Shown here one piece after another: positions 1-3,000 of a stretch of DNA of 3,229 nucleotides. The stretch's first letter is position 1; every line of letters begins with the position of its first letter. The stretch is taken from assembly GCF_003334255.1 (NCBI RefSeq), contig NZ_QOWU01000125.1; one strand, written 5' to 3'. The position numbers are program-made. This DNA comes from Escherichia coli (GTDB taxonomy: Bacteria; Pseudomonadota; Gammaproteobacteria; Enterobacterales; Enterobacteriaceae).

Positions 1-3000
1 ACCTTCATCGCAGCACCTTCCTGTTTTTATGCCCCATGAAAAAAAACGGCAGGCAAAACTCCTGTGCCTGCCGTCATACTTCATGTCACCTTCAGCAATT
101 AAAACTCGAAGTTCACACCAACGTTCCAGGAGGCATCCCCATCACTGAATGCCACGCCTGCTTTCGCTGCGGTCTGCTCGTTGAAGCGGTAACCCACACC
201 CACTGCCAGTGCCTGCTGGTCGCTGTAACCACCAACCGCTGCCGTGGCGTTGAATTTACCCACACTGTACGGCTGGAACAGACCTGTCAGGGCCGCAGAC
301 TGTGCTGCTGCACGCTTCATTTCCTTGTGGTTTTCATTAATCTGGCGCTGCTGGCTGTCCAGACGTGCTGAATGTTGCTGCAGCGTACGGGTATTGGCTG
401 CAATCGCCTTGCTGTTTTTCTCAATGGATTGCGTGTTACGGGTGACACGGCCATCAATGGCACCAACTGCTGCATCAATACGGTCAGTACGACCAGACAG
501 GGCCACCAGACCATCGTTAACAGAAATGGTGTTCTTTGCACCTTCTGCACGGGTCAGGGTGCCATCAGAACTCACACCAACCAGTGTGCGGGATTCGACT
601 TTTGCAGCTGTTGCAGCAGCCGCAGCATCAATCTTGTCGGTACGCGTGGTCAGTTCACCAAGATTTTTCTTCTGCGCTTCAAGCTCGCCTTTCTGAGCAT
701 CAAGCTTGCCTTTCTGAGCTTCAAGCTCATTCGCAACAATGGTGGAGTTGGCGGACTCCCATGCCAGATAGCGCTGCAAAGATACGCGTTCTTTTATTTC
801 ATTCGGTGTTACAGCCACATTTCCATACTCATCCAGGCCGACGTTGGTTTCCATCTGCTGGATTGCTGAAACGCGGTTGTACAGGTCACGGATATTCTGT
901 TCTGTCAGGAGGTTTGTCTTAATATCATCAGTTTTCCCTGATGCCGCAGCCTTCATGAAATCATGAACTTCTTTATCATAAACAGTAAATGTTGTTGAGC
1001 CGTCTGCGGAGGTAATTGTAACATTACCATTGCCATCTATTTTACTGAGAAGTGGAATCGGCTTATTTCGCTCTTTTTCCACATCACCTAAGCCACCCCA
1101 ATCAATATGTGCCGTTTTATTATCTGGGTTATAATATACTTTATAAATACTCCCAGCGCCGTTCTGAGCATTTAAAGCAGAATAAGATTGCTCAGCAGCC
1201 ATAATATCAAAGCTAACCCCAAACAAAACACCTGCCATTGCCGCAGACAAAACAGCCTTTGTAAATTTCTTGCTCATGTGGTATACCCTATAAAATTATC
1301 TGTATACAAATAAAACAGTTCAACATCGGATATATAAAGAAAATCTGATGTCTCGCCGCTATCATGAGCTTACTCCTGAAGAAATTCCGAATTTTAATAT
1401 GAAGTTTTTCGGAATTTCCTTACTATAACGTCGGTGATATCACGTTCGCGAAGGGATATCCGCATTACGACTGGCCTGCCACTTATGCTGTCTCTTTATT
1501 CATCAACAATTTGTATACGGTTACATATTTAATTGTGAAGTTAGTCACAAAAAGAAGAAAGTCAAATAATCAAATTGTGCTTAACTGTTTACATCAGCAC
1601 AATCTGATGACCATTGAAGGACGCACTAAATTATTTTCAGCAATCCCTCAGCCTACGAAAATTCTGTATTTGATAATTGTTTTATTTGCTCTCTTTTTAT
1701 GCAGCCATTCTGTTGCTTATAAAAAAGCACCACTATCCGCGCCCTCATCTCAATATCTTTGTCGCCGGATAAAAATAACTATCAACCACAAGTATCATGC
1801 TCTCGGGGAGCGCGCACTCCCCCACTTTTTTTATCCCTGACAGGGTCAGGAGGCCGTTGCATCTCCTTTAATTATCATTGCCAGATTATTTCCTCGACCT
1901 GAGTATTCTTTATTTAGCCATAGCTTTGTAGCAAGGGGCTGGAGCGCCCCTCTTTTTTTCACCTGTCAGCCATGCCGACCTTATACGCCAGTATAGCTTC
2001 CGCATCACCCAGCGCTTCAATCTCTTTTTTCATCGTGCGCTGTCTGACATGAATTTCCAGACCTTTGGTAAACATCGCCTGCTCTGCAGCAGCACTCAGA
2101 GCAATCAGTGTTTCAGCGTCCATCGGTACGTCATTATTGTCCGCATCCGTCCAGAAAAACTGCTCCGGCAGTTTCCCCGCTTTCGCTGCCGCCACCGACG
2201 GCTCAAGACGCGTCTGCGTTGACTTCCCGTAGTCCCATTTACGCCCATTGTGCTCAAACGTGTAGTTCGCCGCTTCCATCGCATTACGCCAGGCATTAAT
2301 TTCCACCTTTTTCCGTTCACGTGACTGTGTTAAAGCTTCCGGCGGTTCTTCATACGGCTTAATCTCTCCATACCTGCCGGAAATTAAATCAGTAAAAAGT
2401 TGTCGTCCGTGATTTTCCGGATCATTTTCTGACGCAGTAAAAGGAAACCATTGCTCACCAATTTTTATCTCACAGGAAATATTACCCAATCGAGTATATA
2501 CCGCCCCCCTGACGTCTGTTACAACAATCGCCATTCTTCCCCCTGTATTACACAATGCGTTGAAATAACGTTAAGTTTGTTGTCATGGTCTGCTCATCGT
2601 ATCCGGGAGCACCCAGACTTAAAGCAGACACAAAAGCCCGCCATGTCCCCGGGATACTGTTTCCGGCATTATGAACAATCGAGAACGTGGGCGAATACGT
2701 GACGCCAACGCGGTAAAGAATCGCCACTTCAGTAATTTTTTCGCCATTGATATTCTCTTTAATTGCACTTTCACTTTCGAGAGTCGATATCGAACCAAAT
2801 AAGAAAGAGCCAACCGCATATTTTTCTGTGGATACATTACCATTCCTGCCTGCTGCCCCCTGCGGCCCTGCCGGACCACGAGGGCCTGCCGGGCCGGTTT
2901 TCCCCTGCGGCCCCGCGGGACCTGTTGCTCCGGGTTCGCCTTTGTCCCCTTTTGGCCCCGGGGCACCTTTGGCTCCGGCTGCACCAGCCGGTCCCTGAGG

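What the first reader, a model, noticed from the sequence alone, without database searches (positions are those of the whole stretch)
1500..1959. Unannotated convergent plus-strand transcription unit implied by two plus-oriented terminators in the AT-rich spacer
All annotated genes are on the minus strand, yet the spacer holds two hairpin + T7 structures that are terminators only in the plus orientation (1805-1832 and 1934-1959). The second ends exactly at the 3' end of the tail-fibre assembly-like gene, and a small 6-bp-stem hairpin (CCTGAC-AGG-GTCAGG, 1836-1850) lies between them. This suggests a plus-strand RNA of unknown function (a small RNA, or an mRNA for a small protein) starting somewhere in about 1480-1800. 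The structures could also insulate the tail genes from antisense transcription coming out of the adhesin regulatory region.
Basis: partly seen in the sequence, partly recalled or inferred. Interest (0 to 1): 0.55.

Follow-up and report, generated by a model that had tools for sequence, protein, structure and literature searches.

The report
Backward-facing terminators behind a phage tail gene
The two hairpins are real plus-strand terminator-like structures. The one touching the tail-fibre assembly gene is a conserved boundary terminator of this prophage family and the other looks like a weakened copy, but nothing supports a hidden plus-strand gene or small RNA, so the feature is ordinary.

Summary
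The window is prophage P-EibA of E. coli ECOR-9 (AF151091.1, reverse complement). On the minus strand it carries tail fibre, tfa (orf-191A, DUF4376), a 681-nt spacer, then eibA.

**Observation: confirmed.**
- Both hairpin + T7 structures exist and face the plus strand.
- Hairpin C (1934-1959) passes a free-energy/tail score (d = +11.8; 1 of 500 shuffles reach it).
- Hairpin B (1805-1832) is marginal (d = -19.6), because three bases separate its stem from the T-run.

**What C is.**
- The same layout (tfa stop, A-run, GC hairpin) follows 15 of 18 distinct tfa 3' ends across 61 loci.
- These fall into six hairpin sequence classes with compensatory stem changes.
- In prophages without eib, it is the only terminator behind a convergent YkgJ-family gene.

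**What B is.**
- B, and a third module A that is deleted in this window, occur only in eib spacers.
- B is weakened in some paralogues, and A is degenerate or absent in most.
- Both resemble another tfa-adjacent terminator, so they are probably relics.

**No plus-strand unit is supported.**
- No promoter scores above shuffle expectation.
- The 77-aa ORF is broken in paralogues.
- There are no Rfam or protein matches.
- 1443-1930 is not conserved in divergent eib-type cassettes.

**Verdict:** module-boundary back-stop terminators; low interest.

The parts
1934..1959 (+). Hairpin C: intrinsic terminator facing the plus strand. Stem is AGGGGC/GCCCCT, loop TGGAGC, then C and T7. It abuts the tfa stop codon (1959-1961).
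   Evidence: d = +11.8; 1 of 500 shuffles reach that score. It is intact in 14 of 14 distinct eib spacers. The same architecture follows 15 of 18 distinct tfa 3' ends, with compensatory stem changes.
1805..1832 (+). Hairpin B: weaker plus-facing terminator-like hairpin. Stem is GGGGAG/CTCCCC, followed by a CAC spacer and T7. It is probably a relic or paralogue of a tfa-adjacent terminator.
   Evidence: The score is d = -19.6 here and -9.3 in other copies. A stem G>T weakens it in 4 of 14 distinct copies. It forms direct repeats with C, including downstream bases (D3/D5). Local alignment to the L051/L059 tfa-adjacent terminator plus flank scores 53, against a shuffle 95th percentile of 45.
1848..1867 (+). 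Weak third plus-facing hairpin (GGAG.../...CTCC) with an A/T-rich tail.
   Evidence: It becomes a 6-bp GGAGGC/GCCTCC stem in the KY176-type copy, but its d score is negative everywhere.
1836..1850 (.). Small palindrome CCTGAC-AGG-GTCAGG.
   Evidence: Present in the window. Absent from 8 of 10 aligned homologous spacers. Its fold is no better than shuffles (z = -0.19).
1734..1735 (.). Site of a 114-bp indel. Most paralogous spacers carry 'module A' here, a third plus-facing hairpin + T-run. It is deleted in this window.
   Evidence: 52 places in 25 genomes. In L008 module A scores d = +31.7. It is degenerate in five distinct copies and absent in five.
1607..1840 (+). 77-aa plus-strand ORF (inside the 109-aa TTG ORF 1511-1840). 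Judged non-coding.
   Evidence: 25-119 aa in paralogues; start lost in 4; premature stop; frameshift. No homologues or families found.
1542..1570 (+). Best plus-strand promoter-like site inside the spacer (TAGTCA-17-AATAAT). Not significant.
   Evidence: score 9.18, against a median shuffle maximum of 11.5. The -35 hexamer varies (CAGTCA) in half the copies, and the site is not called in L008.
1959..2534 (-). Tail-fibre assembly-like gene orf-191A (DUF4376).
   Evidence: GenBank and RefSeq annotation.
99..1277 (-). eibA, a YadA-like immunoglobulin-binding adhesin and the cargo gene of the cassette.
1295..1323 (-). Best promoter-like site of the region (TTGAAC-17-GATAAT), 18 nt upstream of the eibA ATG. 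The likely eibA promoter.
   Evidence: (score 11.8). It lies in the only spacer segment conserved in divergent cassettes.
1381..1418 (.). Perfect 11-bp inverted repeat GAAATTCCGAA-N16-TTCGGAATTTC in the eib control region. Annotated as a stem_loop in GenBank.
   Evidence: (z = -3.8). Related repeats occur in divergent cassettes.
45..75 (-). eibA intrinsic terminator.
   Evidence: dG -19.4; d = +35.5.

Best explanation
The hairpins are reverse-facing intrinsic terminators that mark the distal boundary of the tail-gene module. They are not the end of a dedicated plus-strand gene.

- **Hairpin C (1934-1959).** This is the resident boundary terminator of this tfa family. It sits directly against the tfa stop codon, with its U-tract on the strand antisense to tfa. 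RNA polymerase arriving from the cargo side would therefore stop before running antisense into the late tail operon.
- **C in related prophages.** Where there is no eib gene, the same element is the only terminator behind a convergent YkgJ-family cargo gene.
- **C in P-EibA.** The cargo (eibA, orf-156A, orf-60A, eaaA) has the same orientation as the tail genes, so no convergent gene remains. C then most likely works as a back-stop for divergent or spurious transcription starting in the AT-rich eibA control region.
- **Hairpin B (1805-1832) and module A.** B and the deleted module A are paralogous copies of such boundary terminators. They were probably carried along when the eib cassette recombined behind successive tfa genes. 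B is weak and partly decayed, and may add a little redundant termination.

**Shown:**
- structure, orientation and statistics of the hairpins
- family-wide conservation and covariation of C
- the convergent gene in relatives
- decay of A and B
- absence of a conserved ORF, of a significant promoter and of a known RNA family

**Inferred:**
- actual termination activity
- the source of plus-strand transcription
- the relic origin of B
For: - Identity and gene layout.
- Hairpins and orientation. C scores d = +11.8 (1 of 500 shuffles reach it); its minus-orientation score is -21.3.
- Long-form spacer L008: five terminator-like calls (four distinct hairpins), all on the plus strand, against 0.5 +/- 0.6 expected.
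- Family-wide architecture: 15 of 18 distinct sequences downstream of DUF4376 tfa genes (61 loci) have stop codon, A-run and GC hairpin, in six hairpin sequence classes.
- Orientation of scores: 6 of the 12 scored representatives reach d > 0 facing antisense; only L030 does in the tfa-sense direction.
- Covariation on 14 hairpins: 83% of cells paired; 5 of 8 pairs with two-sided changes; score 0.349 against 0.132 in shuffles (0 of 500 reach it); all slid registers are lower.
- Convergent YkgJ-family gene 140-160 nt from tfa in L012-L015, with that hairpin as the only terminator between them.
- C-type hairpins also precede four divergent co-oriented YadA-like cassettes.
- C is intact in 14 of 14 distinct eib spacers. 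B is weakened in 4 of 14. A is intact in 4, degenerate in 5 and absent in 5.
- B/C direct repeats; A and B align with the L051/L059 boundary terminator and its flank above the shuffle 95th percentile.
- Against a dedicated unit.
Against: - No transcript, 3' end or termination efficiency was measured, so function is inferred from sequence only.
- No convincing source of plus-strand transcription was found in P-EibA, so the need for a back-stop here is itself hypothetical.
- C might simply be inherited together with tfa.
- Copies of the window-type spacer are 93-100% identical, so intactness in 14 of 14 copies has little power, and the decay of A and of B probably reflects one mutational event each.
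- The A/B versus L051/L059 similarity is modest (scores 53-55; the shuffle maximum reached 56-61).
- The covariation alignment was hand-registered on the stems, which biases it towards pairing.
- The d-score uses ViennaRNA energies rather than the original parameter set.
- Some C-equivalents score below zero (KY176 -4.2, L011 -44.8).
Confidence: 0.6

Rival explanations
1. A dedicated plus-strand non-coding RNA. This could be an sRNA of about 160-200 nt starting near 1640-1670, or a roughly 530-nt RNA from a promoter divergent from the eibA promoter. It would be made from the spacer and end at B and/or C, and it would regulate eibA, tfa or host targets.
For: - Two same-strand hairpin + U7 structures.
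- Weak promoter-like sites at 1542-1570, 1604-1632 and 1634-1662.
- The plus strand of 1639-1834 folds somewhat better than shuffles (z = -2.44), while the minus strand does not (z = -0.80).
- 70 nt upstream of B is invariant in 10 copies.
- Prophage-encoded Hfq sRNAs ending in such terminators are common in pathogenic E. coli (bioRxiv 10.64898/2026.05.13.724894; PMC4104026).
Against: - No promoter exceeds shuffle expectation, and the best one is polymorphic.
- No Rfam family matches.
- The two alleles of the putative body break many of the predicted pairs, and the covariation term is unfavourable (+2.96).
- The region is absent from divergent eib-type cassettes.
- B is weakened, and A is degenerate or deleted, in paralogues.
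- B fails tail scoring.
- High identity across the whole spacer means invariance is not evidence of constraint.
Confidence: 0.12
2. All the hairpins, C included, are inert fossils of earlier gene arrangements (a lost convergent cargo gene and serial cassette recombination). They do nothing in P-EibA today.
For: - No convergent gene and no significant plus promoter in P-EibA.
- A and B show decay.
- C travels with tfa: in KY176 the recombination junction lies near window 1850.
- In relatives the convergent YkgJ-family gene explains why C exists.
Against: - C-type hairpins persist, with compensatory stem changes, next to five different co-oriented YadA-like cassettes that have no convergent gene. 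This argues for continued selection.
- The A-run/T-run asymmetry is kept in nearly all classes.
Confidence: 0.15
3. The hairpins act on the minus (sense) strand. They would serve as 3'-end stabilisers or processing sites of the late tail mRNA, or as structures in a long eibA leader, and not as plus-strand terminators.
For: - Both fold slightly better as minus-strand RNA (-13.3 and -13.6; z = -2.1 and -2.6) than as plus-strand RNA (-11.2 and -11.6).
- C lies directly after the tfa stop codon.
Against: - The conserved asymmetry is an A-run before the hairpin on the sense strand, which is a U-tract on the antisense strand. A stabiliser role does not explain this.
- Minus-orientation scores are all strongly negative here.
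- In L012-L015 the element is clearly placed as the terminator of a convergent gene.
Confidence: 0.08
4. The plus-strand ORF 1607-1840 (77 aa, with a hydrophobic segment ILYLIIVLFALFL) encodes a small membrane protein, and B/C terminate its mRNA.
For: - An ATG-initiated ORF ends at 1840, just after B.
- It has a hydrophobic stretch.
- The 11-bp duplication found in some copies preserves a start codon.
Against: - There is no Shine-Dalgarno sequence.
- In paralogues the ORF length is 25-119 aa, with ATG>ATA in four, a premature TAA in the UPEC245-type allele, and a 2-nt deletion in KY176.
- tblastn finds no homologues in phages outside eib spacers, and there is no PHROG family.
- Hairpin B lies inside the ORF.
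Confidence: 0.03

Closest known systems
Intrinsic (Rho-independent) terminators at convergent gene junctions
   Same: A GC-rich 6-8 bp stem, a short loop and a U-tract. It sits between a tail-module gene and, in relatives L012-L015, a convergent gene. The d-score is positive for C and for several equivalents.
   Different: It is unidirectional, with a U-tract on one side only. This differs from the bidirectional terminators often shared by convergent genes (own knowledge: Ju et al. 2019, Nat Microbiol). In P-EibA no convergent gene is left.
Moron architecture in lambdoid phages (promoter-gene-terminator cassettes downstream of tail genes)
   Same: eibA has its own promoter-like site and a strong terminator, and it lies just after tfa. 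This is the classic moron/cargo position (PMC3594210 describes morons as independent transcription units).
   Different: The hairpins in question lie at the 5' side of the moron and face away from it. They belong to the tail-module boundary, not to the moron's own terminator.
Phage lambda tfa-ea47 junction
   Same: tfa is followed by a convergent leftward gene, with a hairpin in the 128-nt gap.
   Different: Lambda's hairpin (CCGCAGAAACGTT...AACGTTCTGCGG) has a 12-bp stem and is not flanked by the A-run/T-run asymmetry seen here. There is no sequence similarity, and lambda Tfa is a different family from DUF4376.
Prophage-encoded Hfq-dependent sRNAs of pathogenic E. coli (AgvB, AsxR, Esr41, STnc100, PasA-D)
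   Same: They are prophage-borne, unannotated, and end in a stem-loop plus poly-U (bioRxiv 10.64898/2026.05.13.724894; PMC4104026).
   Different: No Rfam match was found. The Pas sRNAs are described near Q, holin/lysis and RusA genes, not behind tfa. Here there is no supported promoter, no conserved body and no covariation.

Membership tests
Intrinsic (Rho-independent) terminator, plus orientation | GC-rich stem-loop of about 5-14 bp with favourable folding energy | tested here: met
   B has 6 bp (5 GC) at -11.2 kcal/mol. C has 6 bp (5 GC) at -11.6 kcal/mol.
Intrinsic (Rho-independent) terminator, plus orientation | U-rich tract immediately (0-2 nt) after the stem, with a combined hairpin/tail score above threshold | tested here: inconclusive
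   C is met: one C, then T7, d = +11.8. B is not met: a 3-nt CAC spacer, then T7, d = -19.6 (-9.3 in other copies). The score is home-made, built on ViennaRNA energies.
Intrinsic (Rho-independent) terminator, plus orientation | Structure conserved through compensatory changes in homologues | tested here: met
   Across 14 tfa-adjacent and spacer hairpins, 83% of cells are paired and 5 of 8 pairs have two-sided changes. 0 of 500 shuffles reach the observed score, and all slid registers are lower. The alignment was hand-registered.
Intrinsic (Rho-independent) terminator, plus orientation | RNA 3' ends or termination activity at the site | not testable with these tools
   No transcriptome or Term-seq data were available, and the papers on eib regulation are not held.
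Bidirectional terminator | A-tract upstream and U-tract downstream, so the hairpin terminates in both directions | tested here: not met
   The minus-orientation tails are GCTACAAAG and GAGAGCATG, with d = -21.3 and -26.9. Only the L030-type equivalent looks bidirectional.
Trans-acting sRNA gene | Own promoter upstream of the terminator | tested here: not met
   The best plus-strand site scores 9.18, against a median shuffle maximum of 11.5. It is polymorphic and is not called in L008. Non-sigma-70 promoters were not tested.
Trans-acting sRNA gene | Conserved body or structure, or membership of a described RNA family | tested here: not met
   Rfam gives no match at E <= 5. RNAalifold on the two alleles has an unfavourable covariation term of +2.96 and many broken pairs. 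1443-1930 is absent from divergent cassettes.
Small protein gene (plus strand) | ORF, start codon and reading frame maintained in homologues; ribosome-binding site; homologues elsewhere | tested here: not met
   The ORF is 25-119 aa in paralogues, with start loss, a premature stop and a frameshift. No Shine-Dalgarno sequence. No homologues or PHROG family.
Moron (eibA cassette) | Cargo gene with its own promoter and terminator, inserted between conserved phage genes | tested here: met
   Promoter-like TTGAAC-17-GATAAT lies at 1323-1295 and a strong terminator at 45-75. The spacer is found only in eib-carrying genomes, 27 of 5426. Promoter activity was not tested.

The most novel reading that the evidence does not exclude
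The eibA control region fires divergently. This could come from overlapping -10 elements around 1289-1300 or from H-NS-silenced spurious promoters in the 28-40% GC spacer. The result would be a plus-strand non-coding RNA of several hundred nucleotides ending at B/C. That RNA, or the act of transcribing it, would take part in switching eibA on and off. The stack of plus-facing terminators (up to four in long-form spacers) would then be selected to confine this regulatory transcription, and would also record successive transfers of the eib cassette between tail modules.
Probability: 0.1. Interest if true: 0.5.

Novelty: new member of a known kind. Interest (0 to 1): 0.22.

Why it matters
If right, this adds only a small piece of phage genome grammar. 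In this family of lambdoid prophages the tail operon ends with a terminator that faces backwards. It shields the late genes from transcription coming out of the lysogen-expressed cargo region (adhesins, YkgJ-like genes).

- It helps annotation. These hairpins should not be read as evidence of hidden genes, and the small 'hypothetical proteins' called in the spacer of some phage records are probably spurious.
- The tandem, partly decayed copies mark old recombination junctions, so they can be used to trace how the eib adhesin cassette moved between prophages.
- It does not reveal a new kind of system.

Tried and rejected
- **Rfam.** A scan of the whole window at E <= 5 found nothing.
- **Remnant of the YkgJ-family gene.** blastn-short of the spacer against the L013 region found no similarity, so the convergent gene of relatives has left no detectable trace.
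- **Remnant of tfa coding sequence next to B.** By eye, only four codons precede an in-frame stop, so the 'relic tfa 3' end' idea rests on the hairpin and left-flank similarity only.
- **77-aa plus ORF as a membrane protein or type I toxin.** Rejected.
- **Minus-strand 38-aa ORF 1846-1962.** It starts at a GTG overlapping the tfa stop and is annotated as hypothetical in PhiR5_1. It is not conserved in the KY176-type copy, and its PHROG match is insignificant (E = 0.25).
- **Pas, AgvB, AsxR and Esr41 sRNAs as candidates.** They have a different genomic context and give no Rfam hit.
- **Lambda as a model for the same element.** Its junction hairpin differs.
- **Papers on eib promoters and IbrAB (Sandt & Hill 2000; Sandt et al. 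2002).** Not held in the library. The eibG/EibD paper uses only heterologous promoters.
- **Not used.** Searches of the large protein databases and structure prediction, because no credible protein was in question.
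Full report
**Identity of the window.** The spacer 1278-1958 is 100% identical to AF151091.1, prophage P-EibA of E. coli ECOR-9, in reverse complement. On the minus strand lie a collagen-like tail-fibre gene (orf-401-like, ending at about 2548), the tail-fibre assembly-like gene orf-191A (DUF4376; 1959-2534) and eibA (99-1277). Beyond the window lie orf-156A, orf-60A and eaaA, all in the same orientation. 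GenBank annotates two stem-loops: the eibA terminator (window 46-74) and an inverted repeat upstream of eibA (1381-1418). Neither hairpin in the finding is annotated.

**Checking the observation.** Both structures are present as described.
- B: GGGGAG-CGCGCA-CTCCCC at 1805-1822, then CAC, then T7 at 1826-1832.
- C: AGGGGC-TGGAGC-GCCCCT at 1934-1951, then C, then T7 at 1953-1959. The last T overlaps the tfa stop codon.
- The consensus scan finds 9 terminator-like sites in the window against 3.5 +/- 1.8 in shuffles, and these two are the best.
- With a d'Aubenton-Carafa-type score (ViennaRNA energies, TransTerm-style tail score), C scores +11.8. It is the only plus-strand site in the window above zero, and 1 of 500 dinucleotide shuffles of the spacer reach that value.
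- B scores -19.6, because three bases separate its stem from the T-run. The eibA terminator scores +35.5 on the minus strand.
- In the minus orientation both hairpins lack a T-tail (d = -21 to -27).
- The small palindrome at 1836-1850 exists but is not kept in 8 of 10 homologous spacers.

**Distribution of the spacer.** The whole spacer, including 1740-1962, occurs only in 27 of 5426 complete E. coli genomes, at about 70 places with a median of three per genome. It also occurs in eight phage records. It is always found between a DUF4376 tfa and a YadA-like eib gene.

An alignment of ten copies and a table of 14 distinct copies show the following:
- 1278-1680 is almost invariant.
- An 11-bp duplication polymorphism lies at 1607-1617.
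- A diverged 70-nt allele lies at about 1668-1735.
- A 114-bp indel lies at 1734/1735. This insert, absent from the window but present at 52 places in 25 genomes, carries a third plus-facing hairpin + T-run (module A: GGGGAGCGTGCCGTCTCCCC-GTTTTTT, d = +31.7 in L008).
- In the long-form spacer L008 there are five terminator-like calls (four distinct hairpins), all on the plus strand, against 0.5 +/- 0.6 expected.

**Hairpin C belongs to the tfa module.** I collected 61 loci encoding relatives of this Tfa protein.
- They give 18 distinct sequences downstream of the stop codon.
- 15 of the 18 have the same layout in the tfa sense: stop codon, A-rich run, GC hairpin. That is a terminator facing the opposite way.
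- They fall into six unrelated-looking hairpin classes: GGGGC/GCCCC, GGGAAA/TTTCCC, GGGGCTG/CAGCCCC, GGGGGA/TCCCCC, GGGGGTGA/TCACCCCC and GGGGAGC/GCTCCCC.
- Of the 12 representatives scored, six reach d > 0 facing antisense (L012 +51, L059 +35, L030 +30, L013 +5.5, L014 +2.3, plus the window type). Only one, L030, does so in the tfa-sense direction.
- I registered 14 hairpins by hand on their stems. Of the cells, 83% pair, and 5 of 8 pairs show two-sided changes. The covariation score is 0.349 against 0.132 in shuffles (0 of 500 reach it), and all slid registers are lower. Hand registration favours pairing, so this is supporting rather than decisive evidence.

In the prophages without eib (L012-L015), a YkgJ-family gene of about 110 codons lies convergent to tfa, 140-160 nt away. 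The tfa-adjacent hairpin is the only terminator between the two genes. In the divergent KY176-type eib locus, the segment from about 1850 to tfa co-varies with tfa. C keeps its stem there while its loop changes.

**Hairpin B and module A look like paralogous relics.**
- B and C are direct repeats that extend past the T-run: CCCCaCTTTTTTTatCCCTGaCAG against CCCCtCTTTTTTTCACCTGTCAG.
- A and B share the stem GGGGAGC.../CTCCCC. With their left flanks they align to the tfa-adjacent terminator of the L051/L059 type with scores of 53-55. The 95th percentile in shuffles is 45-46, but the shuffle maxima reach 56-61, so this is only suggestive.
- C is intact in 14 of 14 distinct spacers.
- B carries a stem-breaking G>T in four copies (dG -4.5 to -7.1).
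- A is intact in four copies, degenerate in five (-2.7) and absent in five. Each of these states probably reflects a single event.
- Four other, divergent tfa-spacer-YadA-like cassettes (L030, L037, L028/L011, L051) have only the tfa-adjacent hairpin.

**Tests of a plus-strand transcription unit.**
- *Promoter.* A position-weight scan gives a best plus-strand score inside the spacer of 9.18 (TAGTCA-17-AATAAT, 1542-1570), below the median maximum of shuffles (11.5). Its -35 hexamer is CAGTCA in half the copies, and the site is not called in L008. The best site overall is on the minus strand just upstream of eibA (TTGAAC-17-GATAAT, 11.8).
- *Coding.* The 77-aa ORF 1607-1840 lacks a Shine-Dalgarno sequence. 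In paralogues it is 25-119 aa, with ATG>ATA, a premature TAA and a 2-nt deletion. It has no homologues outside eib spacers and no PHROG family.
- *RNA family.* Rfam returns nothing at E <= 5.
- *Structure.* RNAalifold over the region upstream of module A, using both alleles, gives an unfavourable covariation term (+2.96) and many broken pairs. The window's plus strand 1639-1834 folds modestly better than shuffles (z = -2.44), while the minus strand does not (z = -0.80).
- *Deep conservation.* Between the window and the four divergent cassettes only 1279-1442 is conserved (63-71% identity). tblastx hits appear in all six frames, which indicates non-coding conservation. Nothing in 1443-1930 is shared.

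**Interpretation.** The most economical reading is that C is a functional, backward-facing boundary terminator of the tail module. In relatives it ends a convergent cargo gene. In P-EibA, where the cargo is co-oriented, it can only stop stray or divergent transcription leaving the AT-rich (28-40% GC) eibA control region. B is a weak, partly decayed paralogue left from earlier cassette exchanges.

It does not match the headline suggestion of a hidden sRNA or small-protein unit. Termination activity and the existence of any plus-strand RNA remain untested.

**Comparison with known systems.**
- These are ordinary intrinsic terminators at a convergent or module junction, next to a classic moron (PMC3594210).
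- They are unidirectional rather than bidirectional.
- Lambda's own tfa-ea47 junction has a different hairpin without the A/T asymmetry.
- Known prophage sRNAs (AgvB, AsxR, Esr41, STnc100, Pas) neither match nor share the context.

**Verdict.** I file the feature as a new member of a known kind, with low interest (0.22). The most novel reading still open is regulatory divergent transcription from the eibA control region, confined by a terminator stack. I give that about 10%.

Noticed in passing
window 1279-1442: This eibA-proximal segment is the only part of the spacer conserved (63-71%) in four divergent tfa-spacer-YadA-like cassettes. It holds four features: the promoter-like TTGAAC-17-GATAAT; a palindrome TTTGTATACAAA between the hexamers; the motif AAAGAAAATCTGATG; and the inverted repeat GAAATTCCGAA-N16-TTCGGAATTTC (1381-1418). 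It is probably the real eib regulatory region, possibly the target of IbrAB-dependent activation.
   Followed up: partly
window 1734/1735; L008 1958-2071: A 114-bp indel lies here. Most paralogous spacers carry an extra plus-facing terminator module (A), which is strong in L008 (d = +31.7), degenerate in other copies, and deleted in this window. The breakpoints share the bases ATC.
   Followed up: yes
window 1607-1617: An 11-bp tandem duplication polymorphism (ATGACCATTGA). It is single in the window and doubled in L006, L007, L009 and L018.
   Followed up: partly
window 1668-1735: A 70-nt patch exists as two alleles of about 70% identity (window type against UPEC245/SCU104 type), embedded in flanks that are more than 98% identical. 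This is a sign of mosaic recombination inside the spacer.
   Followed up: partly
window 1569-1608: An invariant inverted repeat, ATCAAATTGTGCT-N14-AGCACAATCTGAT (13-nt arms, 92% complementary). Its function is unknown. A related TTAACTGTTTA motif appears in the L037-type spacer.
   Followed up: no
L012-L015, about 1984-2325: In related prophages without eib, a convergent YkgJ-family cysteine-cluster gene lies immediately downstream of tfa, and a Hok/Gef toxin gene lies between J and the tail-fibre gene. The same cargo gene is found at two different chromosomal integration sites, next to potB and next to yodB.
   Followed up: partly
L002 (PhiR5_1) 2701-2826 and 2957-3124; window 1846-1962 minus strand: Some phage records annotate two small minus-strand 'hypothetical proteins' inside this spacer. 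The window equivalent is a 38-aa ORF starting at a GTG that overlaps the tfa stop. It is not conserved in the KY176-type copy and is probably a spurious gene call.
   Followed up: partly
window 2850-3060 minus strand: The tail-fibre gene contains a long collagen-like Gly-X-Y repeat ([25 protein letters not shown]...), as described for prophage tail fibres of pathogenic E. coli (PMC3368898).
   Followed up: no
L051 1918-2860 (and L059): Another tfa-spacer-YadA-like cassette has a spacer of about 495 nt. Its tfa-adjacent terminator (GGGGAGC-ATCC-GCTCCCC) and flank resemble modules A and B of the window-type spacer. It is a possible donor lineage for those relics.
   Followed up: partly
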